A stretch of 18,054 nucleotides of DNA from Enhygromyxa salina (GTDB lineage: Bacteria; Myxococcota_A; Polyangia; Nannocystales; Nannocystaceae), in assembly GCF_002994635.1 (NCBI RefSeq), contig NZ_PVNL01000139.1:1-18054 (forward strand). The letters run 5' to 3'. The translations under genes were made by a program, and so were the position numbers. Numbering within the stretch: the stretch's first letter is position 1; every line of letters starts with the position of its first letter. Under the pieces are notes generated by a model. It was not told the origin of the DNA. It did no database searches and saw only the letters and a program-made list of their open reading frames with translations. Positions 1 to 15,339 of the stretch are shown in pieces.

Positions 1-436
1 CCCCAGCATCCACCGCCCCCCGCCAAGGTTGTTCGAGCTGCCCGACCAACAAGATCAACCCAACGATCCCCACCAACAACACCCAAGACCCAATCAACCG
101 CCGCCGCGAAGCATGGATCAACCCCATCGCCATCACCGGCGCCACCACCACCATCCACCCTCCCCGCCGCGCCAACGCAAACGCCCGCACCACCACCCGC
201 GGCGAAAAGCTGCGCTGAAACCCCCGGTACCCCTCGCTGTACGCGAACAAGCCGATCAACCCAACGTAGGCAAGCGCCCCACCAAGCTCGAGCGACCCAT
301 CGAGCACCGGCTCGAGCGCCCGCGGCAGCAACCGCACGATCGCCTGCAGCAATAGCGCGACGATCCCCAGGACCGCCCACCACACGATCGCCAGGCCGCC
401 GCGCGTGGTCGGTGGGGAGCTCATGCGCCGGACCAT
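1..436 (-). CDS. Polytopic membrane protein of unknown function. Only the N-terminal ~145 aa are in the window; the 3' end runs off the window start.
   Basis: The reverse-strand frame is open from the ATG at complement 434-436 (with an in-frame stop just upstream at 443-445) to position 1. Its translation is MVRRMSSPPTTRGGLAIVWWAVLGIVALLLQAIVRLLPRALEPVLDGSLELGGALAYVGLIGLFAYSEG...GSWVLLVGIVGLILLVGQ. It shows at least three hydrophobic helix-length segments and strong GC3 codon bias. The six-frame track does not list it because the window contains no stop for it. The + strand ORF 29..355 on the same DNA is a His/Pro/Arg low-complexity artefact. Confidence 0.5.
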   Translation of the reverse strand, partial: MVRRMSSPPTTRGGLAIVWWAVLGIVALLLQAIVRLLPRALEPVLDGSLELGGALAYVGLIGLFAYSEGYRGFQRSFSPRVVVRAFALARRGGWMVVVAPVMAMGLIHASRRRLIGSWVLLVGIVGLILLVGQLEQPWRGAVDAG

Positions 437-548
437 ACGCGCTCACGCGGCAGGCGGGAATCGCTCGCGCGCAGCCTGGTCTGGGCCCCCCGGTTGGGTC
501 GGCGGAATCCTGTGCGAAACTCCGCAGGGACCGCACCCACGAGTCACC

Positions 549-2537
549 ATGCGCAAGTTCAGCCTCGCCCTCGCCGCCTCCTGTCTGCTCTGCCTGCCCG
601 CCTGTGACAGCTCGCCCAACGACAAGGACCGCGCGTCCAAGGACGACAAGGACGACAAGGACGACAAGGACCGCGCGTCCAAGGACGAGGACAGCGACAA
701 AGACGACGACAGCAACCCGCTCGCGGGCCTCGCCAACAACCCCTTGGCGGCGATGTTCACCAAGAAGCTCGACGAGCCGGGCCCCTACGATCCACCCAAG
801 CAGTCGCCCAACTACGCCGCCGATCAACCGCACCTGCGCGTGCTGAACCTGTCCGGCAGCGTCGGCGAGGTCGAGTCCTTCGATCCGCTGGCGTTCGCGG
901 GCGGCGGCGGCGGCAGCCTGCGGACCCGGGCGCTGCTCGACAAGCTCGGCGAGCTGGCCGCCGAGCCGCAGCTCGAGGGCCTGGTCTTGCGAGTGGGGGA
1001 TCTGAGCCTGGACATGGCCCGCGGCGTCGAGCTGCGCGCGGCGCTGACCGAGTTCAAGGCAGAGGGCGCCCGCAAGCTCCACTGTCACGCCGAGTCGCTG
1101 AACAACACCAGCTACTTCCTGCTCTCGGTCTGCGACGAGCTGGCCATGGTCCCCGTCGGCACGCTGATGCTGCCCGGACCCGCGGCCACGCCCATCCACC
1201 TCAAGGGCCTGCTCGACAAGCTCGAGGTCCAAGCCGACTTCCTGCACGTCGGCGCGTTCAAGGGCGCGGCCGAGCCCCTGACCCGCGACGCGCCCTCGCC
1301 CGAGATGCTCGAGACCCTCGGCGCGCTGGTGGATCAGGCCTACGCGACCATGGTCAGCGGCATCGCGCAGGGTCGGGGCAAGCCCGAAGCCGAGGTCACC
1401 GGGTGGATCGACCAGAGCTTGTTCACGTCCGAAGCCGCGGCCGAGCGGGGCCTGATCGACAGCGTCGAAGCGTGGGAGCCGTTCTTGACCCGGGTCACGG
1501 GCGAGCGCGGGTGGAAGAACGTCACGCTGACGGACAAGCCGTGGTCCGACCCCCTCGCGCTGCAGCGCTTCTTGGGCATGGCGGGGCCCAAGCGCCCGAG
1601 CGAGCCCCACGTCGCGCTGGTCTACGCGGTCGGCAACATCATCGACGGCAAGGGCGGCGGCGCGATCGGAGCCACGACCGAGATCGCCTCGGGTCAGCTG
1701 GTCCCCGTGCTCGACCGCCTCGCCGCCGACGACAAGGTCGCGGCCGTGGTCCTGCGCATCGACTCTGGCGGCGGGTCGGCCCAGGCCTCGGAGCAGATCT
1801 GGCACGCGGTCGAACGGCTCAAGGCCACCAAGCCCGTGGTCGTGTCGATGGCCGGGGTCGCGGCTTCGGGCGGCTACTACATCGCCGCGGGCGCCGACCA
1901 GATCTTCGCCGACACCGACACCGTGACCGGGTCGATCGGCGTCGTCGGCGGCAAGCTGGTGCTCGGCAAGGCGCTCGAGAGCTTCGGCATCAAGAGCTTC
2001 GCGGTGACCAAGGGCGAGCACGCGCTGCTGTGGTCGCCGATGCAGGCGTGGACCCCGGACGAGCGCGAGATCGTCTACGCCATGATGGAGCAGACCTACG
2101 AGGTGTTCGTCCAGCGCGTCGCCGCCGGTCGCAACATGGACCGCGACGCCGTCCACGAGATCGCCCAGGGTCGGGTCTGGACCGGCGTCGCCGCCAAAGA
2201 GCGCGGGCTCGTCGACGAGCTCGGCGGGCTCGAGCAGGCGCTGGCGGCCGCGGCCAAGCTCGGCAAGGTCGAGCCCGACGTCGGTCTCGAGGTCTACCCG
2301 GGCGAGCCCACGATCAAGGACATCCTCGGCAGCTTCGAGCAGCTCGTGGCCGTTCAAGCTGGGGCCCGCGCCGACTCGCTGCCGATCGGGATCGGGATGG
2401 TCATCGACGAGCTCGCGGCCAGCGTCGGGCCCGAGGGGCGACCGTGGATCGAGGCCGTCCGCGCGTCACTGCGGACCACCGTCGCGCTGCAAGGCAGCAC
2501 GGTGTGGGCGGTCGAGTGGACCCAGAGCGTTCGCTAG
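549..2537 (+). CDS. sppA: Signal peptide peptidase SppA (protease IV, peptidase S49), 67K type with two tandem S49 domains. The N-terminus has a lipoprotein-like signal.
   Basis: Lies within the tracked ORF 405..2537. The preferred start is the ATG at 549, giving MRKFSLALAASCLLCLPAC (signal peptide with Cys). Two S49/ClpP-like halves are present. The second half carries the typical active-site context VVVSMAGVAASGGYYIAAGADQIFADTDTVTGSIGVVGG and GGSAQASEQIWHAVERL. A low-complexity acidic linker DKDRASKDDKDDKDDKDRASKDEDSDKDDD follows the signal. Confidence 0.85.
   Translation: MRKFSLALAASCLLCLPACDSSPNDKDRASKDDKDDKDDKDRASKDEDSDKDDDSNPLAGLANNPLAAMFTKKLDEPGPYDPPKQSPNYAADQPHLRVLNLSGSVGEVESFDPLAFAGGGGGSLRTRALLDKLGELAAEPQLEGLVLRVGDLSLDMARGVELRAALTEFKAEGARKLHCHAESLNNTSYFLLSVCDELAMVPVGTLMLPGPAATPIHLKGLLDKLEVQADFLHVGAFKGAAEPLTRDAPSPEMLETLGALVDQAYATMVSGIAQGRGKPEAEVTGWIDQSLFTSEAAAERGLIDSVEAWEPFLTRVTGERGWKNVTLTDKPWSDPLALQRFLGMAGPKRPSEPHVALVYAVGNIIDGKGGGAIGATTEIASGQLVPVLDRLAADDKVAAVVLRIDSGGGSAQASEQIWHAVERLKATKPVVVSMAGVAASGGYYIAAGADQIFADTDTVTGSIGVVGGKLVLGKALESFGIKSFAVTKGEHALLWSPMQAWTPDEREIVYAMMEQTYEVFVQRVAAGRNMDRDAVHEIAQGRVWTGVAAKERGLVDELGGLEQALAAAAKLGKVEPDVGLEVYPGEPTIKDILGSFEQLVAVQAGARADSLPIGIGMVIDELAASVGPEGRPWIEAVRASLRTTVALQGSTVWAVEWTQSVR
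621..700 (+). repeat. Short coding direct repeats inside sppA. A 26-bp perfect direct repeat sits at 621-646 and 663-688, and a 9-bp GACGACAAG triplet lies between the copies. It encodes a (DKDRASKD/DDK)n acidic linker.
   Basis: Direct reading of the sequence: gacaaggaccgcgcgtccaaggacga occurs twice. Confidence 0.8.
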
Positions 2538-4249
2538 AGCACCGACTTGGGGCGGCGGTTGAACCACGCGATCCCGAAGATCCCCAGCAACCCAAACAGG
2601 CCCTGCAGACCCAGGCGCTCGATCGAGCAGCCTGGGCCAGGGCCGGTCAGCTGCGAGTCGTTCCAGGCGCTGAGCGTGGCGTCGATCGTCGCGGCGTTGT
2701 CGAGCTCGACCTGCGGCGGGCCCATCATCGGGACTCGCTCGATCCGCAGCGCGGCCGGGTTGTCGTCGAGCTCGGGCATCGTGCCTCCGTTGGTCAGCGC
2801 GACCGTGCGTCCGTCCGGCAGCTCGAAGTACGAGGGCCCGCCGTCGCAGTCGTTGACCCGCGTCGCGCTGATGTTGTTGTCGACGGTCGGCACCCCGCCA
2901 GCCGGGTGAAACAGCGGATCCTCGATCATCTCGTGAGGCGAGATCAGCGTGAACAGCCGGGTCAGCTGGGTCGCGTCGTCGAGCATGTCGAGGGCGTGCT
3001 GACCGGGGCCGACGATCCGGGTCTGAAAGTCCGCCGCGAAGCCCGGCTGCGCGTCCCAGGCGGTCAGGTCGATCTGGTCCTGGAAGCACTCGAGGCAGCT
3101 CCAGAACTCGTGGGCGTTCACGCCACTCGGGGCCGGCAGGTAGATGTTCAACAGCACCTCCAGCTGCGGGTGCGCGAACGTGCACTCGCCGTCCGTGCAG
3201 CTCATGAGGCCGCGAGACACGAGCAGATCGATGAAGGTCAGCAGCTCGGCGTTCTCGAACGCCGCCGGGTCCCACTGCGGATCGAACACCCCGGAGGTCG
3301 AGACAATCGCGTCGGTGCCCGCGTACTCGGTGATGAACGCACGACCGCCCGCCTCGTCGATCGCGAGGCTGACGACTTCGTTGTAGGTGGTGCTCGGCCC
3401 GTTGACCCAGTCGAAGCGCGAGTGGTTGATCTCCACGTGCGGCCAGTTCTGCGGGGCGGCCCGCTCGTTGCCCAGGAAGAACGCCCGGATCGCCATGTCG
3501 TCGACCGCCGCGATCCGGGTCAGCCGGATCGGAATGCAAGGCTCGACGCCCGGATAGCGGATCCCGAGCGGGTGGATCTCGTCGACCCCGGCCCCGCTGG
3601 CGAGCTTGACCGCCACGAACACGAAGCCCTCTTGCAGGTACTCCTCGAGGATCGGCGGCGCGTCGGGGTCTTGCGCGTAGCCGGCCTGATCGAGCCAGTC
3701 GGTGATCTCGGCGATGTTGTCGCCGGTCAGCACCACGTACTCGAACGCGCCCGCGAACCCGCGATCGAGGATCTCGGGCCCGTCGGTGTCCCCACCTGTG
3801 AGACCGGTCCCGCCACCGTCGTCGGCGAAGTCGATCTCGCTCGACTCGGCCGTGGCGCAGGCGAGCCCGGTCGACCCCCCACAGTCCCCGATCGACGTGG
3901 TGTTGATCGTGAAGGTCGGGACCGTCGCCTGCAGCACGTTGTCGAACAGCGCCTGCGAGCCGACCAACACCTCCGGGACCTCGAGCACCGGTATGATCCA
4001 CGCGAACCGCTCGGCGTCGCCCTCGTACTGAATCTGGATGTGCGCCTCCGTGTAGGGCTCGCTGCCGGTCTCGTCGATCCAAAAGATGATGCTCTCGCCG
4101 GTCTGGTCGACCGGCATCACCTGCGGACCCGCGTCGCAAAAGGTCCCGCCGCAGGCCTCGGCGGTGGTTGGCGCGGCGACCACCAAAGGAACGACCACAG
4201 CCGCCAACAGGGCGGGCGCGAGCAGCTTGATTGAGTTGCGAATCAGCAT
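2534..4249 (-). CDS. Secreted Cys-rich protein of unknown function (571 aa) with a MYXO-CTERM-like C-terminal sorting tail. Paralogue 1 of a tandem pair.
   Basis: Tracked ORF. The N-terminal signal peptide is MLIRNSIKLLAPALLAAVVVPLVVAAPTTAEA followed by CGGTFCDAGPQ. The protein has 18 Cys residues. The C-terminus GPGPGCSIERLGLQGLFGLLGIFGIAWFNRRPKSVL has a Gly/Cys motif, then a hydrophobic helix, then a basic cluster, which is the MYXO-CTERM pattern. It is about 75-80% identical to the downstream ORF 4289..6025. The antisense ORFs 1403..4234 and 2466..4139 are R/G/D-rich artefacts. Confidence 0.8.
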   Translation of the reverse strand: MLIRNSIKLLAPALLAAVVVPLVVAAPTTAEACGGTFCDAGPQVMPVDQTGESIIFWIDETGSEPYTEAHIQIQYEGDAERFAWIIPVLEVPEVLVGSQALFDNVLQATVPTFTINTTSIGDCGGSTGLACATAESSEIDFADDGGGTGLTGGDTDGPEILDRGFAGAFEYVVLTGDNIAEITDWLDQAGYAQDPDAPPILEEYLQEGFVFVAVKLASGAGVDEIHPLGIRYPGVEPCIPIRLTRIAAVDDMAIRAFFLGNERAAPQNWPHVEINHSRFDWVNGPSTTYNEVVSLAIDEAGGRAFITEYAGTDAIVSTSGVFDPQWDPAAFENAELLTFIDLLVSRGLMSCTDGECTFAHPQLEVLLNIYLPAPSGVNAHEFWSCLECFQDQIDLTAWDAQPGFAADFQTRIVGPGQHALDMLDDATQLTRLFTLISPHEMIEDPLFHPAGGVPTVDNNISATRVNDCDGGPSYFELPDGRTVALTNGGTMPELDDNPAALRIERVPMMGPPQVELDNAATIDATLSAWNDSQLTGPGPGCSIERLGLQGLFGLLGIFGIAWFNRRPKSVL

Positions 4250-4288
4250 GTCGGTGCTTCTTTCTGGTGACTATCTCTAACTCTAGCT

Positions 4289-6025
4289 CTAGCGCCTACG
4301 CCCGCGGCTGAACCAGGCGATCCCAAACATCCCGAACATGGCCAGCATCCCCTCGAGGCCGACGCGACCGATCGAGCAGCCCGGCTCGGGGCCCGAGAGC
4401 TGGTCGTCGTTCCAGGCCTTCAGCAGGCCGTCGATGTCGTCGCCGTTGTCGGTCTCGACCTGCGGCGGGCCCATCATCGGGACCTGCTCGATCCGCAGCG
4501 CGGCCGGGTTGCCGTCGAGCTCAGGCATCGACCCGCCACTGTCCAGCGCGATCGTGCGACCGTCCGGCAGCTCGATGTAGGACGGCCCGCCATCGCAGTC
4601 GTTGACCCGCGTCGCGCCGATGTTGTTGTCGACGGTCGGCAGCCCGCTGGTGGTGTGAAACAGCGGGTCTTCGATCATCTCGTGGGGCGACAGCAGCGTG
4701 AACAGCCGGGTCAGCTGGGTCGCGTTGTCGAGCATCTCGAGCGCGTGCTGGGCAGGCCCGTAGATCCGCGCCTCGAAGTCCGCGGCGAAGCCCGGCTGCG
4801 TGCCCCACGCGGTCTCATCGATCAGCCCCTCGTAGCAGGACACGCAGCTCCAATAGGTGTGGGCGGCGACGCCGTCGGGGGCCGGCAGGTAGATGTTCAG
4901 CAGCGCCTCGACCTGCGGGTGCCTGAAGATGCACTCGAGCCCGTCGCAGGTCATCAGGACCTGCGACGTGAGCTCGTCGACCACGTCGACCGCGGCGATC
5001 CCTTCGAGCGCCGACAGGCTCCAGCTCGACTCGAACACGCCGGAGGTCGAGATGATCGCGTCGGTGCCCGAGTACTCGGTGACAAACCCCCGACCACCCG
5101 CCTCGTCGATCGCGAGGCTGACGATCTCGTTGTAGTTGGTGCTCGGCCCGTTGACCCAGTCGTAGCGCGAGTGGTTGATCTCCACGTGCGGCCAGTTCTG
5201 CGGGGCGGCCCGCTCGTCGCCCAGGAAGAACGCCCGGATCGCCATGTCGTCGACCGCCGCGATCCGGGTCAGCCGGATCGGGATGCAGGGCTCGACGCCC
5301 GGATAGCGGACCGCGAGCGGATGGATCTCGTCGACCCCGGCCCCGCTGGCGAGCTTGACCGCCACGAACACGAAGCCCTCTTCGAGGTACTCCTCGAGGA
5401 TCGGCGGCGCGTCGGGGTCTTGCGCGTAGCCGGCCTGATCGAGCCAGTCGGTGATCTCGGCGATGTTGTCGCCGGTCAGCGTCACGTACTCGAACGCGCC
5501 CGCGAACCCACGATCGAGGATCTCGGGCCCGTCGGTGTCCCCGCCGTCGCCCCCGCTGCTGAAGGCCTCGTTGCGTCCATCACCACCAGCCGAGAAATCT
5601 GCGGCTGCGCAGCCGATCCCGAACGACCCGCCGCAATCCCCGATCGAGGTGCTGTTGATCGTGAAGGTCGGGACCGTGGCCTGCAGCATGTTGTTGAACA
5701 GCGCCTGCGAGCCGACCAACACCTCGGGGACCTCGAGCACCGGGATGATCCACGCGAACCGCTCGGCGTCGCCCTCGTATTGGATCTGGATGTGCGCCTC
5801 GGTGTGTGGTTGGCCGCCGCTCTCGTCGATCCAAAAGATGATGCTCTCGCCGGTCTGATCGACCGGCATGACCTGCGGGCCGGCGTCGCAGAAGGTCCCG
5901 CCGCAGGCGTCGGCGACCTGCGGAGACCAGGCCGCGAGCGCGAGCATGCCCGGCAGCGCCAAGGTGAACAGACGAGAGATCAAGGTCGAAGGTGCGTAGG
6001 TCATGACAGCTTTGGTAGCTTGCAT
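4289..6025 (-). CDS. Secreted Cys-rich protein of unknown function with a MYXO-CTERM-like tail. Paralogue 2 of the tandem pair. The start is placed at the ATG at complement 6023-6025; the ATG at 6002-6004 is also plausible.
   Basis: The tracked ORF 4289..6295 starts upstream with a non-protein-like stretch (MATTSISTVG...). A signal peptide appears only from MQATKAVMTYAPSTLISRLFTLALPGMLALAAWSPQVADA followed by CGGTFCDAGPQ. The C-terminus is GCSIGRVGLEGMLAMFGMFGIAWFSRGRRR (MYXO-CTERM-like). There is long collinear identity with paralogue 1. Confidence 0.75.
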   Translation of the reverse strand: MQATKAVMTYAPSTLISRLFTLALPGMLALAAWSPQVADACGGTFCDAGPQVMPVDQTGESIIFWIDESGGQPHTEAHIQIQYEGDAERFAWIIPVLEVPEVLVGSQALFNNMLQATVPTFTINSTSIGDCGGSFGIGCAAADFSAGGDGRNEAFSSGGDGGDTDGPEILDRGFAGAFEYVTLTGDNIAEITDWLDQAGYAQDPDAPPILEEYLEEGFVFVAVKLASGAGVDEIHPLAVRYPGVEPCIPIRLTRIAAVDDMAIRAFFLGDERAAPQNWPHVEINHSRYDWVNGPSTNYNEIVSLAIDEAGGRGFVTEYSGTDAIISTSGVFESSWSLSALEGIAAVDVVDELTSQVLMTCDGLECIFRHPQVEALLNIYLPAPDGVAAHTYWSCVSCYEGLIDETAWGTQPGFAADFEARIYGPAQHALEMLDNATQLTRLFTLLSPHEMIEDPLFHTTSGLPTVDNNIGATRVNDCDGGPSYIELPDGRTIALDSGGSMPELDGNPAALRIEQVPMMGPPQVETDNGDDIDGLLKAWNDDQLSGPEPGCSIGRVGLEGMLAMFGMFGIAWFSRGRRR

Positions 6026-6110
6026 GCCACCGGCGCTCGCGCCAACGATCTTCAGCTGGAGCCGGATTCTTCGCAGTTTTCCGCAGCGCACCGCCACCAA
6101 GACGCGGGTG

Positions 6111-6950
6111 TCACACCAATTCGGGATACAGGTGGCGAGCCTCGAAGCCCTCCCGCAGGTCCTCGGCCCGCTCGTAGCGGGCGCCCAGGTCCACCACCAG
6201 GTAGCGCCGCTTGGACGGCGGCGCACCAAACAAGACGGGGCAGGCCTGGTTGCCGTGCTCGGTGTACCAACCGTCGAGATCGACGTCGTGGCCATGCACG
6301 ACCACGCGCAGGTCCAGCCCTGGCTGCGACAGCTGGCGCAGCAGCTTGTTGGTGGTCTCGCCGGCCTGACCGTAGCTGGTCAGCAAGGTCCGCAGCATCG
6401 ATCGCTGAGCCAGCTCGGCTTCGCCCGATGGCTCGAGCGCGCCGAGCTGATCGAGCGAAGGGATCTGCTCGTCGGGCGAGCCGTGGCACAGCAGCAGTCC
6501 GCACGGCGCCGCCACGGCCAGCAGCGCGCCACGAAACAGCGCGTGCATCCGGGCGATCGCGTCGGCCGACATCCGTCGCTCGAGCATCTCGACCTCATCA
6601 CGATAGAACTTGCTGGTGTGCGGTCCGCCGATGTGCCCGTGGTCATGATTGCCGAGCAGCAAGTGGAAGTTGGCGGGAAATCGCGCGCGCAGCTCGATCA
6701 TCGCCTCGACCAGCGCGGCGCTCTCGTCGGGGTAGCCAAACCGCAGCGCGTCACGCTGGCGGGCGACCGGGCTGGGCCCATGAACCAGGTCACCCAGCGA
6801 CGCCCAGTGAACCAGATCCGGGTGCTCGGCGGCCTCGCACAGCCTATCGAACACCGCGCGGAGCCGCCGAAAGTCCTCGTGGTTGCCGTGCAGATCCGTG
6901 GAGATCAGCAGCTGCCCACGCGCGGGCAAGATCCGAACACGGCCCGCCAT
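6111..6950 (-). CDS. Calcineurin-like metallophosphoesterase (PPP/ApaH-like phosphatase fold).
   Basis: The metallophosphatase motifs appear in order: D-x-H in STDLHGN, GD-x-x-D/H in LGDLVHGP, and GNH[DE] in LLGNHDHGH, with a later VVHGHD. The Shine-Dalgarno sequence GAGGGG lies 6 nt upstream of the ATG at complement 6948-6950. Confidence 0.75.
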   Translation of the reverse strand: MAGRVRILPARGQLLISTDLHGNHEDFRRLRAVFDRLCEAAEHPDLVHWASLGDLVHGPSPVARQRDALRFGYPDESAALVEAMIELRARFPANFHLLLGNHDHGHIGGPHTSKFYRDEVEMLERRMSADAIARMHALFRGALLAVAAPCGLLLCHGSPDEQIPSLDQLGALEPSGEAELAQRSMLRTLLTSYGQAGETTNKLLRQLSQPGLDLRVVVHGHDVDLDGWYTEHGNQACPVLFGAPPSKRRYLVVDLGARYERAEDLREGFEARHLYPELV

Positions 6951-6965
6951 GCAAACCCCTCGCGT

Positions 6966-8150
6966 TCAGGAGAACGCGCTCAGGCCCGTGAGCGCGCGGC
7001 CAATCGCGAGGGTGTGGATCTCGTGGGTGCCCTCGTAGGTGAACACCGTCTCGAGGTTGCACAGGTGCCGCATGATGTGGAACTCGCCCATGATCCCGTT
7101 GCCGCCGAGCATGGTCCGCGCGGTCTGGGCGGCCTCACGAGCCATGCGCACGTTGTCGCGCTTGAGGTAGCTGACCTGCGAGGGATCGAGCTGGCCCGCC
7201 TGCTTGAGCCGGCCAAAGTGATAGGCGAGCAGCAGCCCCTTGCCGATCTCGTTGTGCAGCTCGACGAGCTTTTGCTGGGTCAGCTGAAAGCCCGCGATCG
7301 GGCGCCCGAACTGGACGCGATCCAGGGTGTACTGGCGGGCCCGCTCGTACACGTCCATGGCCGCGCCCACGGCCCCCCAGCCGATCCCGTAGCGCGCCTG
7401 GGTCAGACAGCTCAGCGGCCCCTTGAGCCCGCGCACGCCCGGCAACATGTTGTCCTTGGGCACGCGGACCTCGTCGAGCACGATCTCGCCCGTGATCGAC
7501 GCCCGCAAGCTCAGCTTTCCGTGGGTCTCGGGCGTGCTCAGCCCAGCCATGCCGCGCTCGACCACGAACCCGCGGATCACCGGCGTGTCCGAGCCGTGAT
7601 CCAAGGTCTGGGCCCAGACCACGCACAGGTCCGCGATCGGGCTGTTGGTGATCCACATCTTTTGCCCGCTCAAGATGTAGTCGCCGCCCTCGCCGTCTTG
7701 CTTGGCGTGGGTGCGCATCGAGCCGGGGTCCGAGCCAGAGTTGGGCTCGGTCAGGCCGAAGCAGCCGATCAGCTCGCCAGCGGCCATGCGCGGCAACCAC
7801 CGCTGCTTTTGTTCCTCGGTGCCGTAGGCCGAGATCGGATACATCGCCAGCGCGGTCTGGACCGAGCAAAACGAGCGGATGCCCGAGTCCACGCGCTCGA
7901 GCTCGATCATGATCGTGCCGTACGCGACCGGGTTGAGGCCGGCGCAGCCGTAGCCCTCGATCGAGCAGCCCAGGAAGCCCATCTCGGCGAACTCGGGGAT
8001 CAGCTCCTTGGGGAAGGTGCCGGCCTCGTAGTGCTGCTCGATCACGGGCATCACCCGGGTCTGACAAAAGTCGCGGGCGGCCTTCCAGGTCAGCCGCTCG
8101 TCATCGTCGAGCAGGTGGTCGATGCTCAGCAAATAGGTGCGCGGGTCCAT
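6966..8150 (-). CDS. gcdH: Glutaryl-CoA dehydrogenase-like acyl-CoA dehydrogenase (394 aa).
   Basis: Full-length ACAD fold. The C-terminal motif TVFTYEGTHEIHTLAIGRALTG matches the glutaryl-CoA dehydrogenase catalytic-Glu region (TYEGTHDIHALILGRAITG in human GCDH). The length and the FAD/substrate-binding regions (GxTEPxxGSD, WITN) are also consistent. Confidence 0.8.
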   Translation of the reverse strand: MDPRTYLLSIDHLLDDDERLTWKAARDFCQTRVMPVIEQHYEAGTFPKELIPEFAEMGFLGCSIEGYGCAGLNPVAYGTIMIELERVDSGIRSFCSVQTALAMYPISAYGTEEQKQRWLPRMAAGELIGCFGLTEPNSGSDPGSMRTHAKQDGEGGDYILSGQKMWITNSPIADLCVVWAQTLDHGSDTPVIRGFVVERGMAGLSTPETHGKLSLRASITGEIVLDEVRVPKDNMLPGVRGLKGPLSCLTQARYGIGWGAVGAAMDVYERARQYTLDRVQFGRPIAGFQLTQQKLVELHNEIGKGLLLAYHFGRLKQAGQLDPSQVSYLKRDNVRMAREAAQTARTMLGGNGIMGEFHIMRHLCNLETVFTYEGTHEIHTLAIGRALTGLSAFS

Positions 8151-8216: not shown

Positions 8217-9713
8217 TCAGTAGCTCTCGCAGCGAGTCTCGTTGGCGGCGCAGCTGAAGCGGACGTGGAAGTGCGCCGTGTGGCCGCTCGCGTTGCGCAC
8301 GATCCCGTTGTTGGTGCCCGAGCTGCTGGGGTACTGGATCGTGCGCTCGAGCATGTCCTTGCTCGCCCCGGCCTTCTTGGCGGCCTTGTAGAGCCGCTTT
8401 TGCCGACTCGTGCTCAAGAAAATGTACTGGACCTCGCCGGTCGAGATTAGCGCCTGGATCAGCGCCCAGGTCGCGTCCCAGTCGACGTCGTCGATGTTGT
8501 CCGACGAGCCGCTCGCCGACTTGACCGGCAGCCGGACGTCGACGTCGCGGCCGCTCTGGTGCGACGAGTGCGGCTTGAGCCGGCCGCCACCTCGCTTGCT
8601 GATCGCGCCGATCACCAACTCACCGCTGAACCCCGTCGCGCGGCGAAAATTGGCGATCGCCAGCTGCAGATTGTGCAGGGTGTGGCTGCTGCCAAAGCAC
8701 TCGTCTGGCTTGCGAATCGTGTACAGGACCTTGTTCTCGGGCAGCGCGAGCGCGTTGACGAGCTTGCCGCGATTGGGCTTGCCGACCGAGACCGAGCCGG
8801 TCTTGATCTTGACCAGCGGCAGCCTGGCAGCAGACACGGAGGCCGCGCTCGCGGTGCTCGACGAGCTCACGCTGGCAGACTTGGCGCTGGTCCCCGCGCT
8901 CGCCTTGGTCCGGGTCTCGTCGGCGTCGCGCAGAAGATCTGGGTTGTTCAGCGGGTCGACCCAGATCACCAGCTCTTGCCCGGCCTTGAACTTGCGCGGG
9001 ACCTTGGAGTTCCAGCGCAAGCGCAGCAGATCCACGTCGACGTGGTGCGCGCTGGCGATCTTGTTCCACGTGTCGCCCGACTTGACCGTGTAGATCAGCT
9101 TTTGCTGGGGCGGCGGGATGTGCTTGGTGTAGACCGCGAGATCGCGGCCCGCGAACAGCTGCGGCCGCCTCTCGTCGAGCTTGTTCCAGCGGATCAGCGA
9201 GCCCGTGCGGACGTCGTAGCGGGTGGCGATGTCATCGAGCCGCTCGCCCGGGAGGATCGTGTGCTTGATCCACTTGGGCTTCTTGAGCTTCTTGATCTTG
9301 GGGGCCGCGACCTTGGGCTCGGGCGGCGGAGGCTCGGCCGCGCTCGGGCTGTCGTCGGGCTCGTCTTCGTCGGGCTCGTCTTCGTCAGGCTCGTCTTCGT
9401 CGGGCTCGTGCTTGTCCGACTTCGACTTGGCCTGCGGGGGCGGGCTCGACTCGGCCGTGACCTCCGGCAGGATGTCGGGGAGATCTTCGGGTGAGGGCAG
9501 ATCGCCCAACTCGACCTCGGCCTCGGCATTGACCTCGGCATTGACCCTGCCGCGATCACTCGGCGGCGAGGCTGTCGCGACCGCAGGCGAGCCGATGCCC
9601 AACCCGAAGGTCAGCGTGAGCGGCAGAGCGAGCCACAACGAGCGAGGGCGACCATGAGCGACCGACGGGGGCGGCTCGGCTTGTGATGACTCTCGCTCGG
9701 GCTCACTCGGCAT
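8217..9713 (-). CDS. mepA: LysM-LysM-MepA fusion: a secreted penicillin-insensitive murein endopeptidase (peptidase M74, LAS metallopeptidase family). It has two N-terminal LysM domains and an acidic low-complexity region.
   Basis: There is a signal-peptide-like N-terminus. The two LysM repeats are HTILPGERLDDIATRYDVRTGSLIRWNKL and YTVKSGDTWNKIASAHHVDVDLLRLRWN. The MepA zinc-ligand motifs are KPHSSHQSGRDVDV (HASHQTGLDVDI in E. coli MepA) and HTAHFHVRFSC (DHFHVRLSC in E. coli MepA). Confidence 0.85.
   Translation of the reverse strand: MPSEPERESSQAEPPPSVAHGRPRSLWLALPLTLTFGLGIGSPAVATASPPSDRGRVNAEVNAEAEVELGDLPSPEDLPDILPEVTAESSPPPQAKSKSDKHEPDEDEPDEDEPDEDEPDDSPSAAEPPPPEPKVAAPKIKKLKKPKWIKHTILPGERLDDIATRYDVRTGSLIRWNKLDERRPQLFAGRDLAVYTKHIPPPQQKLIYTVKSGDTWNKIASAHHVDVDLLRLRWNSKVPRKFKAGQELVIWVDPLNNPDLLRDADETRTKASAGTSAKSASVSSSSTASAASVSAARLPLVKIKTGSVSVGKPNRGKLVNALALPENKVLYTIRKPDECFGSSHTLHNLQLAIANFRRATGFSGELVIGAISKRGGGRLKPHSSHQSGRDVDVRLPVKSASGSSDNIDDVDWDATWALIQALISTGEVQYIFLSTSRQKRLYKAAKKAGASKDMLERTIQYPSSSGTNNGIVRNASGHTAHFHVRFSCAANETRCESY
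9361..9405 (-). repeat. 15-bp tandem repeat (tcgtcttcgtcgggc/tcgtcttcgtcaggc), three full units plus flanking partial units, inside the LysM-MepA gene.
   Basis: Direct reading of the sequence. Confidence 0.8.
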
Positions 9714-15255: not shown

Positions 15256-15328
15256 TCCGGCATAGCTCAGTTGGTAGAGCAGTCGGCTGTTAACCGACTT
15301 GTCGCAGGTTCGAGTCCTGCTGCCGGAG
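15256..15328 (+). tRNA. tRNA-Asn (anticodon GUU), 73 nt, with no encoded CCA.
   Basis: Manual cloverleaf: acceptor TCCGGCA/TGCCGGA; D arm GCTC-AGTTGGTA-GAGC; anticodon stem GTCGG/CCGAC with loop CTGTTAA (anticodon GTT); variable loop TTGTC; T arm GCAGG-TTCGAGT-CCTGC; discriminator G. Confidence 0.9.
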
Positions 15329-15339
15329 CTACCTGAGAC

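What the first reader, a model, noticed from the sequence alone, without database searches (positions are those of the whole stretch)
3290..5640. Mosaic of near-identical and hypervariable blocks between the two paralogues (gene conversion plus cassette-like diversification)
A block of about 500 bp aligns at near-identity between paralogue 1 (about 3290-3790) and paralogue 2 (about 5040-5540); I could find only scattered single-base differences by eye. Immediately adjacent segments are unalignable at the protein level. The first encodes DCGGSTGLACATAESSEIDFADDGGGTGLTGG against DCGGSFGIGCAAADFSAGGDGRNEAFSSGGDGG, at about 3790-3880 and 5540-5640. A second variable segment is VFDPQWDPAAFENAELLTFIDLLVSRGLMSCTDGECTFAHPQLEV... 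against VFESSWSLSALEGIAAVDVVDELTSQVLMTCDGLECIFRHPQVEA..., at about 2990-3300 and 4740-5040. This pattern suggests recurrent gene conversion that homogenises a scaffold while exposed loops diversify, as in surface antigen or receptor-binding families. Alternatively it reflects recent duplication with selection concentrated on those loops.
Basis: seen in the sequence. Interest (0 to 1): 0.55.

Follow-up and report, generated by a model that had tools for sequence, protein, structure and literature searches.

The report
Gene-conversion mosaic in tandem DUF2330 genes
Two neighbouring copies of an uncharacterised secreted myxobacterial gene have had their middle ~450 bp copied from one to the other by gene conversion, while two flanking segments keep older differences; this is a known evolutionary pattern, but the protein unexpectedly folds like the baculovirus caspase inhibitor p35.

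Summary
Two co-oriented minus-strand genes, p1 (2534-4249) and p2 (4289-6004), each encode 571 aa. They come from Enhygromyxa salina and belong to Pfam DUF2330. They are 95.2% identical over 3290-3790 / 5039-5539, 56% over variable segment 1 and 69% over variable segment 2.

Gene conversion of the central block is well supported. Synonymous divergence there is 0.08, against 0.22-0.41 in the other non-loop segments (0.56 in var1) and 0.24 between orthologues. Segment trees switch from (p1,p2) at 93-98% bootstrap to (p2,orthologue) at 100%. A second tandem pair from a metagenome shows the same switch at quartet sites (16:1 against 6:32).

"Cassette-like hypervariation" is not supported. Both genes are intact, the duplication predates three genomes, and p2's variable segments are stable between strains. 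The amino-acid burst (omega about 1) followed the duplication.

Variable segment 1 is a disordered Gly/Asp/Ser-rich loop that varies in length across the whole family. Variable segment 2 is a confidently folded helical sub-domain, not a loop.

The parts
4289..6004 (-). p2, the upstream DUF2330 paralogue (571 aa from ATG 6004; an in-frame ATG at 6025 is also possible). It is the conservatively evolving copy.
   Evidence: ORF list. Pfam PF10092 scores 84.5 bits against a cut-off of 24.7. It equals database protein P0004 from E. salina. AF2 gives pLDDT 86.1.
2534..4249 (-). p1, the downstream DUF2330 paralogue (571 aa). It is the faster-evolving copy.
   Evidence: PF10092 scores 85.3 bits. It is 100% identical to P0001 from E. 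salina. AF2 gives pLDDT 86.5 and pTM 0.81. Its branch carries most of the changes.
4250..4288 (-). 39-nt spacer between the p2 stop codon and the p1 start codon. The two genes are probably co-transcribed.
   Evidence: Sequence read. No terminator-like site was found between the genes. Co-transcription is inferred.
3348..3793 (-). Gene-conversion tract in p1 (aa about 153-301), encoding the second half of the p35-like domain.
   Evidence: There are 15 mismatches in 446 nt, counted from the mismatch list. The permutation fragment is 3771-3329 or aa 160-330. pS is 0.08. The (p1,p2) clade has 98% and 93% bootstrap.
5097..5542 (-). The matching conversion tract in p2 (offset +1749). p2 is the likely donor.
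   Evidence: Same alignment as above. The p2-orthologue distance in this tract is normal (pS 0.24), and the p2 branch is short. This fits a p2-to-p1 transfer, but the direction is inferred.
3785..3877 (-). Variable segment 1 of p1 (aa 125-155), a disordered Gly/Asp/Ser-rich loop that follows a conserved GDC motif.
   Evidence: pLDDT is below 50 at aa 126-154. No database protein exceeds 36% identity here. Across the family the loop is 0-112 aa long, with 27% Gly.
5534..5629 (-). Variable segment 1 of p2 (aa 126-157).
   Evidence: pLDDT is below 50 at aa 127-156. It is 71% identical to the orthologue P0002. The (p2,L001c) clade has 100% bootstrap.
3014..3289 (-). Variable segment 2 of p1 (aa 321-412), a folded helical and beta-hairpin sub-domain with four conserved Cys.
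   Evidence: pLDDT is 96-98. 42 of 92 residues differ from p2, at positions that also vary across the family. omega is about 1 on the post-duplication branches.
4763..5038 (-). Variable segment 2 of p2 (aa 323-414).
   Evidence: It is 89% identical to the orthologue P0002. The (p2,L001c) clade has 100% bootstrap and (p2,L001c,L006_1) has 96%.
4136..4249 (-). p1 signal peptide (aa 1-32, ending AEA) followed by the near-invariant motif CGGTFC at the start of the mature protein.
   Evidence: AxA followed by CGG[TF]FC occurs in 123 of 164 diverse family representatives, about 27 aa from the start. C33, G34, G35, F37 and C38 are at least 90% conserved. The cleavage site is inferred.
2537..2644 (-). 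p1 C-terminal tail (aa 536-571) with an invariant Cys541, a hydrophobic helix and basic residues. It resembles a MYXO-CTERM sorting signal.
   Evidence: C541, F558 and R565 are invariant. A helix is predicted at aa 548-564. The tail pattern occurs in 134 of 164 representatives. The TIGR03901 model does not reach its cut-off.
4292..4393 (-). p2 C-terminal tail (aa 538-571), of a different type from the p1 tail.
   Evidence: The tail tree gives (p2,L006_1) 100% and (p1,L001c,L006_2) 88%.

Best explanation
p2 and p1 are tandem, co-oriented and probably co-transcribed paralogues of a secreted protein family (DUF2330).

The predicted architecture is:
- an SPase-I-type signal peptide;
- a mature N-terminus beginning CGGTFC;
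- a p35-like beta-rich domain interrupted by a disordered loop (var1);
- a helical, Cys-containing sub-domain (var2) followed by a C-terminal beta/alpha domain;
- a Cys + transmembrane + Arg tail that probably anchors the protein at the cell surface.

The evolutionary history is as follows.
1. The duplication predates the divergence of the window strain, E. salina DSM 15201 and a metagenomic relative (L006).
2. After the duplication, both copies changed amino acids at about the neutral rate (omega about 1) in var1 and var2. These are the segments the whole family tolerates changing. p1 changed most.
3. The upstream copy then settled under purifying selection.
4. More recently, at roughly one third of the synonymous distance to DSM 15201, a single non-reciprocal homologous recombination event (intrachromosomal gene conversion, probably p2 to p1) overwrote about 450-500 bp in the middle of the gene.
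5. The tract stops sharply at var1 and fades into var2. The likely reasons are that sequence divergence blocks heteroduplex extension, or that convertants extending into these segments are selected against.

Shown: the mosaic itself, the dip in synonymous divergence, the phylogenetic switch along the gene, the age of the duplication, and the integrity of both genes.

Inferred: the direction of conversion, why the tract ends where it does, the cellular location, and any function.
For: Divergence by segment
- p1-p2 pS by segment is 0.22 / 0.56 / 0.08 / 0.31 / 0.26 / 0.41. The p2-orthologue values are 0.31 / 0.37 / 0.24 / 0.31 / 0.26 / 0.34.
- A core pS of 0.08 is the lowest of 17 within-array pairs. 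The others range from 0.15 to 0.34, so the core has no intrinsic silent-site constraint.
- Four-fold sites give Fisher P = 0.0009. The permutation test gives P < 1e-4.

Segment trees (NJ bootstraps)
- Core: (p1,p2) 98% and 93%.
- var1: (p2,L001c) 100%.
- var2: (p2,L001c) 100% and (p2,L001c,L006_1) 96%.
- aa 413-510: (p2,L001c) 88% inside (p1,p2,L001c) 92%.
- Tail: (p2,L006_1) 100% and (p1,L001c,L006_2) 88%.

Quartet sites with the independent pair L006_1 / L006_2
- aa 180-299: 16 within-genome sites against 1 positional-orthology site.
- aa 330-389 plus 540-599: 6 against 32. Fisher P = 3.6e-8.

State of the two genes
- Both copies depart from only 5 of 210 columns that are at least 90% conserved, which is the family median.
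- Both fold to the same high-confidence model.
- Branch omega is about 1.0-1.5 in var2a on the two post-duplication branches, then 0.14-0.39 afterwards.
Against: - For the second lineage (L006) the core signal is weaker. Third-position bootstrap is 60%, and core pS (0.24) is no lower than the orthologue pS (0.21). 'Recurrent' conversion of the same block is therefore only moderately supported.
- Four-fold-site tests restricted to equally conserved segments are only P = 0.02-0.04.
- The branch omegas come from parsimony reconstruction with few outgroups, not from a likelihood model.
- p1's var1 and var2 have no close relative anywhere in the database. Their origin, whether fast in-situ divergence or import, is not settled.
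- The window is a draft-assembly contig, and read-level support for the two copies was not available.
Confidence: 0.8

Rival explanations
1. Recent duplication followed by positive selection concentrated on two segments. On this view the central block is simply the undiverged remainder.
For: omega is about 0.9-1.5 in var1 and var2a on the post-duplication branches. pN exceeds pS in 30-codon windows over aa 311-356. The changes are concentrated on the p1 branch.
Against: - Silent divergence outside the core (pS 0.22-0.56) equals or exceeds the divergence between orthologues of different strains.
- In var2, in aa 413-510 and in the tail, p2 groups with orthologues from two other genomes to the exclusion of p1, at 88-100% bootstrap.
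- DSM 15201 carries a hybrid gene with a p2 head and a p1 tail, so both copies existed before that split.
Confidence: 0.04
2. No conversion occurred. The central block is near-identical because it is the most constrained part of the protein, with codon-usage or nucleotide-level constraint also suppressing silent change.
For: The block is the most conserved part of the family at the protein level, with 0.81-0.90 column conservation. The genome is 68% GC with strong codon bias.
Against: - The same block shows ordinary silent divergence between orthologues (p2-L001c pS 0.24) and in 16 other within-array pairs (0.15-0.34).
- The equally conserved N-terminal block, aa 39-124, has pS 0.22 between p1 and p2.
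- The tree topology itself changes between segments.
Confidence: 0.03
3. The copies are young, and the divergent parts of p1 (N-terminal block, var1, var2, C-terminal part) were imported piecemeal from a diverged relative by homologous recombination after horizontal transfer. On this view the core is the only original part.
For: p1's var1 and var2 have no close match in 5.8 billion proteins (best 36% and 62%). p1 does not group firmly with its positional orthologue L006_2 in var2 (29% bootstrap).
Against: - It needs several separate imports covering about 70% of the gene, against one conversion of about 450 bp.
- The p1 tail is positionally orthologous to the tails of L006_2 and of the DSM 15201 hybrid (88% bootstrap; diagnostic sites). 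This indicates vertical descent of the downstream copy.
- In aa 413-510, p1 sits as sister to (p2,L001c) within the local clade (92%).
Confidence: 0.1
4. Assembly artefact: a short-read assembler partly collapsed or cross-threaded two paralogues, producing an artificially similar central block.
For: The source is a draft contig (200,418 bp). Repeats of about 450 bp are comparable to insert sizes.
Against: - The block still carries 15-24 well-spread differences, and both reading frames are intact.
- An independent metagenomic contig shows within-genome similarity over the same block.
- The tract boundary coincides with a real drop to 56% identity.
Confidence: 0.03

Closest known systems
Segmental concerted evolution of Helicobacter pylori outer-membrane paralogues (homA/homB, babA/babB)
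   Same: Two paralogues in one genome are split into segments. One segment clusters by genome, through gene conversion by intragenomic recombination. Another stays divergent and defines the alleles (PMC2795765, read). The evidence used there, segment trees and Ka/Ks per segment, is the same as used here.
   Different: - Here the copies are adjacent and co-oriented rather than dispersed, and the homogenised part is internal rather than at the 3' end.
- The divergent segments differ between paralogues, not between alleles in a population.
- The protein family and phylum are unrelated, and no host-immune context is known.
Concerted evolution of prokaryotic paralogues in general (for example tuf and rRNA operons)
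   Same: Paralogues are more alike within a genome than orthologues are between genomes, because of non-reciprocal homologous recombination (PMC6053082 listed; Santoyo and Romero 2005 as cited in PMC2795765).
   Different: Those cases usually homogenise the whole gene. Here only about a quarter of the gene is homogenised, and the copies are otherwise on separate trajectories.
Baculovirus/entomopoxvirus P35 caspase inhibitors (PF02331)
   Same: - Both proteins have a long exposed loop after an early helix.
- Both have a Cys as the first residue of the mature chain. For P35 this follows Met removal (PMC3375223).
   Different: - No sequence similarity is detectable (hhalign probability below 0.1%; no PF02331 hit at E up to 5).
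- The bacterial protein is secreted, is twice as long with an extra C-terminal domain and membrane tail, and its loop is low-complexity with no conserved cleavage motif.
- Equivalence of var1 to the reactive-site loop could not be checked, because no residue-level superposition was available.
MYXO-CTERM surface proteins such as TraA of Myxococcus xanthus
   Same: They share an N-terminal signal peptide and a C-terminal tripartite tail (invariant Cys, transmembrane helix, Arg cluster) in a member of Myxococcota. TraA is also a surface protein with a variable region (PMC11980579).
   Different: - The tail motif is GP.P.CSI rather than the generic GCGC, and the TIGR03901 model is not reached.
- There is no PA14 domain.
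- The variation here is between tandem paralogues, not between alleles of a single receptor.

Membership tests
DUF2330 (Pfam PF10092) | Profile HMM score above the Pfam gathering threshold | tested here: met
   p1 scores 85.3 bits and p2 84.5 bits against a cut-off of 24.7. The match covers aa 29-308 of p1.
Paralogues under gene conversion (segmental concerted evolution) | Within the tract, paralogues of one genome are closer to each other than to orthologues. Outside it, orthologues group together. | tested here: met
   Core (p1,p2) has 98% and 93% bootstrap. var1 and var2 (p2,L001c) have 100%. Tail (p2,L006_1) has 100%.
Paralogues under gene conversion (segmental concerted evolution) | Synonymous divergence is reduced in the tract relative to the flanks and to orthologues | tested here: met
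   pS is 0.08 in the tract, 0.22-0.56 in the flanks and 0.24 for the orthologue. Four-fold sites differ at 5/72 against 38/149, P = 0.0009.
Paralogues under gene conversion (segmental concerted evolution) | Recurrence: the same block is homogenised independently in another lineage | tested here: inconclusive
   (L006_1,L006_2) has 91% bootstrap on all sites but 60% on third positions. Quartet sites are 16:1 in favour. However, core pS in L006 is 0.24, not reduced.
Cassette-type antigenic variation (pilE/pilS or vlsE style) | An expression site plus silent, truncated donor cassettes | tested here: not met
   tblastn finds only the two full-length copies in the window. Both have a start codon, a signal peptide and a complete tail.
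Cassette-type antigenic variation (pilE/pilS or vlsE style) | Variable segments turn over rapidly between close relatives | tested here: not met
   p2 against its DSM 15201 orthologue is 71% identical in var1 and 89% in var2. omega is 0.10-0.49 on those branches.
MYXO-CTERM sorting domain (TIGR03901) | Tripartite tail: motif with an invariant Cys, a transmembrane helix and a C-terminal Arg cluster | tested here: met
   C541 is invariant, a helix is predicted at aa 548-564, and R565/R568 are conserved. The pattern occurs in 134 of 164 family representatives. The definition is taken from PMC11980579.
MYXO-CTERM sorting domain (TIGR03901) | HMM score above the curated cut-off (20 bits) | tested here: not met
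   The p1 and p2 tails give no hit. A B-type tail from L002 scores 12.3 bits, E = 0.17.
MYXO-CTERM sorting domain (TIGR03901) | Cleavage by myxosortase and surface display | not testable with these tools
   This needs an experiment. No mrtX gene lies in the 18-kb window.
P35 caspase-inhibitor family (PF02331) | The P35 fold | tested here: met
   [not shown]
P35 caspase-inhibitor family (PF02331) | Detectable sequence or profile homology | tested here: not met
   hhalign probability is 0.07-0.08%. There is no PF02331 hit at E up to 5.
P35 caspase-inhibitor family (PF02331) | A reactive-site loop cleaved by the target protease, with the N-terminus then protecting a thioester adduct | not testable with these tools
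   Only indirect parallels exist: a disordered loop after helix 99-109 and a near-invariant N-terminal Cys. No residue-level superposition or biochemistry was available.

The most novel reading that the evidence does not exclude
DUF2330 proteins may be bacterial counterparts of viral P35. On this reading they are secreted, surface-anchored suicide-substrate protease traps.
- The hypervariable disordered loop (var1) would be the bait, equivalent to the reactive-site loop.
- The invariant N-terminal Cys, exposed by signal-peptide cleavage, would stabilise a covalent adduct.
- Tandem arrays of 1-5 copies at one locus would diversify bait and recognition surfaces, while gene conversion keeps the mechanical scaffold uniform.

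If true, this would give P35, which to my knowledge has no known cellular relatives, a large prokaryotic family of 4,654 clusters at 50% identity. It would also define a new class of bacterial protease inhibitor.
Probability: 0.12. Interest if true: 0.85.

Novelty: new member of a known kind. Interest (0 to 1): 0.42.

Why it matters
As an evolutionary phenomenon this is a clean, well-controlled example of segmental concerted evolution. The controls include an orthologue, a second tandem pair and a recombinant single-copy gene. It occurs in a phylum and a protein family where it had not been described, but the mechanism is familiar.

The larger value lies in what the analysis revealed about the family:
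- it is very large and has no published function;
- it has a conserved secretion and anchoring architecture;
- it shows copy-number variation at a syntenic locus;
- its fold has viral P35 as its only structural neighbour.

That fold link gives a concrete, testable functional hypothesis for DUF2330 and a possible clue to the origin of P35.

Tried and rejected
- Exact-sequence lookup of p1 in the contig index found nothing. The source organism was instead identified from the homologue search.
- The genome-contig scan returned only four Enhygromyxa loci and not the window's own genome.
- NCBIfam gives no family for p1 or p2. MYXO-CTERM is below its cut-off. Pfam gives nothing for the C-terminal half except a chance zinc-finger match.
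- A profile search of PDB sequences found no relative.
- hhalign of DUF2330 against P35 was run twice, the second time with a more diverse 153-sequence N-domain alignment against 7 P35 sequences. It found no significant similarity. The non-significant alignment is colinear (DUF2330 aa 172-310 with P35 aa 109-253), but I do not count it as evidence.
- The P35 homologue search found only 7 close baculoviral sequences and no bacterial bridge.
- Literature searches for DUF2330, PF10092 and bacterial P35-like proteins found nothing. The Fisher 1999 P35 structure paper is not held.
- The promoter/terminator scan and the Rfam scan of the region gave nothing relevant.
- The long plus-strand ORFs antisense to the genes (1403-4234 and 4655-6991) were dismissed as high-GC artefacts. 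Their translations are Arg/Gly/Pro-rich, and the minus-strand frames carry the Pfam domain.
- Solvent exposure of var2 could not be computed because model coordinates are not returned. Only proxies were used: family conservation, and polarity of the differing positions.

Full report
**What is there.** The window is 68% GC. Its proteins match Enhygromyxa salina, a marine member of Nannocystaceae in Myxococcota.

- The finding covers two co-oriented minus-strand genes, p1 (2534-4249) and p2 (4289-6004). Each encodes 571 aa, and they are separated by 39 nt.
- Both match Pfam DUF2330 over their N-terminal half, at 85 and 84 bits against a cut-off of 24.7. They have no NCBIfam name.
- I found no literature on this family.
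- The long plus-strand ORFs that overlap them are high-GC artefacts.

**Checking the observation.** A codon alignment gives 82% nucleotide and 76% amino-acid identity overall, but the identity is very uneven along the gene.

| Segment | p1 coordinates | Identity to p2 |
|---|---|---|
| Cleanest part | 3400-3790 | 96.9% nt |
| Variable segment 1 | 3791-3880 | 55.6% nt, with indels |
| Variable segment 2 | 2990-3289 | 69% nt |

All quoted peptides are present. The one overstatement concerns var2. It aligns without gaps, 50 of 92 residues are identical, and all four Cys are conserved.

**Is it gene conversion or just constraint?** Silent sites decide this question.

- p1-p2 pS is 0.08 in aa 156-300. 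It is 0.22 in aa 39-124, 0.56 in var1, 0.31 in aa 301-412, 0.26 in aa 413-510 and 0.41 in the tail.
- The same core block has ordinary silent divergence between p2 and its orthologue in strain DSM 15201 (L001c, pS 0.24). It also has ordinary values in 16 other within-array paralogue pairs from five loci (0.15-0.34). Codon-level constraint therefore does not explain the dip.
- Four-fold degenerate sites differ at 5/72 in the core against 38/149 elsewhere (P = 0.0009). Against equally conserved segments the test gives P = 0.02.
- A GENECONV-style permutation places the maximal p1-p2 fragment at p1 nt 3771-3329, with 0 of 10,000 shuffles as high. With more sequences it falls at aa 160-330.

**Phylogenetic incongruence.** I fetched related loci.

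| Locus | Source | DUF2330 copies |
|---|---|---|
| L001 | E. salina DSM 15201 | 1 |
| L002 | E. salina SWB005 | 2 |
| L003 | MAG | 2 |
| L004 | MAG | 3 |
| L005 | Metagenomic contig | 5 in tandem |
| L006 | Metagenomic contig | p2-type then p1-type pair |

Segment-wise NJ trees with bootstraps give:

| Segment | Supported clades |
|---|---|
| Core | (p1,p2) 98% and 93% |
| var1 | (p2,L001c) 100% |
| var2 | (p2,L001c) 100%; (p2,L001c,L006_1) 96% |
| aa 413-510 | (p2,L001c) 88%, within (p1,p2,L001c) 92% |
| Tail | (p2,L006_1) 100%; (p1,L001c,L006_2) 88% |

- Quartet sites for the two independent pairs favour within-genome grouping 16:1 in aa 180-299. They favour positional orthology 32:6 in var2a/b plus the tail (P = 3.6e-8).
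- The duplication is therefore older than the split of these three genomes, and the core was homogenised later.
- For L006 the core signal is weaker at silent sites: 60% third-position bootstrap, and pS is not reduced. L006 has its clearest tract at aa 501-525, where (L006_1,L006_2) has 98-100% bootstrap. 'Recurrent' conversion of the same block is therefore plausible but not firm.

**What the variable segments are.**

- The variable and conserved pattern between p1 and p2 mirrors the conservation profile of 110 family members. Conservation is low at aa 121-160 and 321-360 and high at aa 41-120 and 161-260.
- AlphaFold2 models of p1 and p2 are confident (pLDDT 86.5 and 86.1; pTM 0.81 and 0.80) and have the same order of secondary-structure elements.
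- var1 is the only long internal disordered stretch, with pLDDT about 30. Across 164 diverse representatives it is 0-112 aa long (median 31) and rich in Gly, Asp and Ser. It is an indel-prone exposed loop.
- var2 is not a loop. It is a helix, beta-hairpin and helix sub-domain with pLDDT 96-98.
- The 42 positions in var2 that differ fall on family-variable columns (mean conservation 0.54 against 0.73). In 23 of 42 cases they are polar in both copies. This fits surface positions but does not prove it.
- p2's variable segments are stable in its orthologue (71% and 89% aa identity).
- Parsimony-based branch counts put an omega of about 1-1.5 burst on the two branches just after the duplication. 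Afterwards omega is 0.14-0.39.
- p1 is the faster copy throughout, and its var1 and var2 have no close relative in the database. Even so, p1 and p2 each violate only 5 of 210 highly conserved columns, which is the family median.
- I see no evidence for cassettes or for ongoing hypervariation.

**A by-product: a recombinant gene in DSM 15201.** At 45 diagnostic sites that separate p2-type from p1-type genes, the single-copy gene of DSM 15201 behaves as follows.

- It is p2-type from aa 332 to 493.
- It is p1-type from aa 539 to the end.

Synteny on both sides matches the window. That strain therefore lost one copy by unequal crossing-over between the paralogues. This independently shows that the pair recombines.

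**What the protein may be.**

- Family-wide, a signal peptide of about 27 aa ends in A-x-A and is followed at once by CGG[TF]FC (123 of 164 sequences). Position -2 is usually charged, which fits signal peptidase I rather than a lipobox. This is my inference.
- 134 of 164 sequences end with Cys + hydrophobic helix + Arg. This is the tripartite layout described for MYXO-CTERM surface sorting (PMC11980579). The TIGR03901 model itself is not reached.
- Foldseek ranks P35 first in PDB. It ranks two P35 proteins, from an entomopoxvirus and a granulovirus, first in BFVD with probabilities 0.97 and 0.96.
- Sequence profiles show no relationship.
- P35 inhibits caspases after cleavage of an exposed reactive-site loop. 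Its N-terminus then moves into the protease active site and protects a thioester adduct (PMC3375223).
- DUF2330 has an exposed hypervariable loop after an early helix, and a near-invariant N-terminal Cys. These are suggestive parallels. I could not obtain a residue-level superposition, and the loop is low-complexity with no conserved cleavage motif. I treat this as a lead, not a classification.
- Gene neighbourhoods give no functional partner. An acyl-CoA dehydrogenase lies upstream in the window and L009. SspB lies downstream in L005 and L007-L009. An SppA homologue lies downstream in the window.

**Verdict.** Gene conversion of the central block is the best explanation (about 0.8). The cassette/antigen-like reading and the recent-duplication alternative are not supported. 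The pattern is a new example of a known kind, comparable to segmental concerted evolution of H. pylori homA/homB and babA/babB (PMC2795765). The P35-like fold of a large, unstudied secreted family is the most interesting thing to follow up.

Noticed in passing
L001:10001-11704 (E. salina DSM 15201), compared with window 2534-6004: The single DUF2330 gene at the syntenic locus of DSM 15201 is a hybrid. It is p2-type at diagnostic sites aa 332-493 and p1-type at aa 539-573. This implies that one copy was deleted by unequal crossing-over between the paralogues.
   Followed up: yes
[not shown]
   Followed up: partly
window 4136-4153 and 5888-5905; family-wide: The motif A-x-A followed by CGG[TF]FC, directly after the signal peptide, is near-invariant across relatives only 35-50% identical to p1. 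The mature protein would therefore start with Cys. The role of this motif is unknown.
   Followed up: partly
L005:10001-18921; L004:3183-8262; L007-L009: DUF2330 copy number ranges from 1 to 5 across the fetched loci. L005 and L007-L009 share SspB downstream, the window and L009 share an acyl-CoA dehydrogenase upstream, and L005 has five copies in a row. The array expands and contracts among Nannocystaceae.
   Followed up: partly
window aa positions 437-448 of p1 (nt about 2906-2941): The C-terminal domain carries a nearly invariant SPHEMIEDPLFH motif (S437, P438, E440, M441, D444 and P445 are invariant). Several other His, Glu and Asp residues are also invariant. This could indicate a metal or catalytic site, but no family or structure match was found.
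   Followed up: no
window 2534-2537: The p1 stop codon and the stop codon of the convergent SppA-like gene (405-2537, plus strand) overlap tail-to-tail by 4 nt.
   Followed up: no
window 619-702: Imperfect repeats encode a Lys/Asp-rich (KDD) low-complexity linker near the N-terminus of the SppA homologue. Its likely true start (MRKFSLALAASCLLCLPAC) looks like a lipoprotein signal.
   Followed up: no
window 9352-9411: Four copies of a 15-nt unit encode a (PDEDE)n acidic repeat in the LysM / murein-endopeptidase-like protein (8217-9713, minus strand).
   Followed up: no
window 15256-15329: A tRNA-Asn (GTT) gene lies on the plus strand. The long ORFs called across it are spurious.
   Followed up: yes
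window 6005-6965: About 960 bp between the p2 start and the acyl-CoA dehydrogenase gene contain no convincing gene. The peptide MQ[AT]TKAVMTYA upstream of ATG 6004 is conserved in DSM 15201, so p2 may start at ATG 6025.
   Followed up: partly
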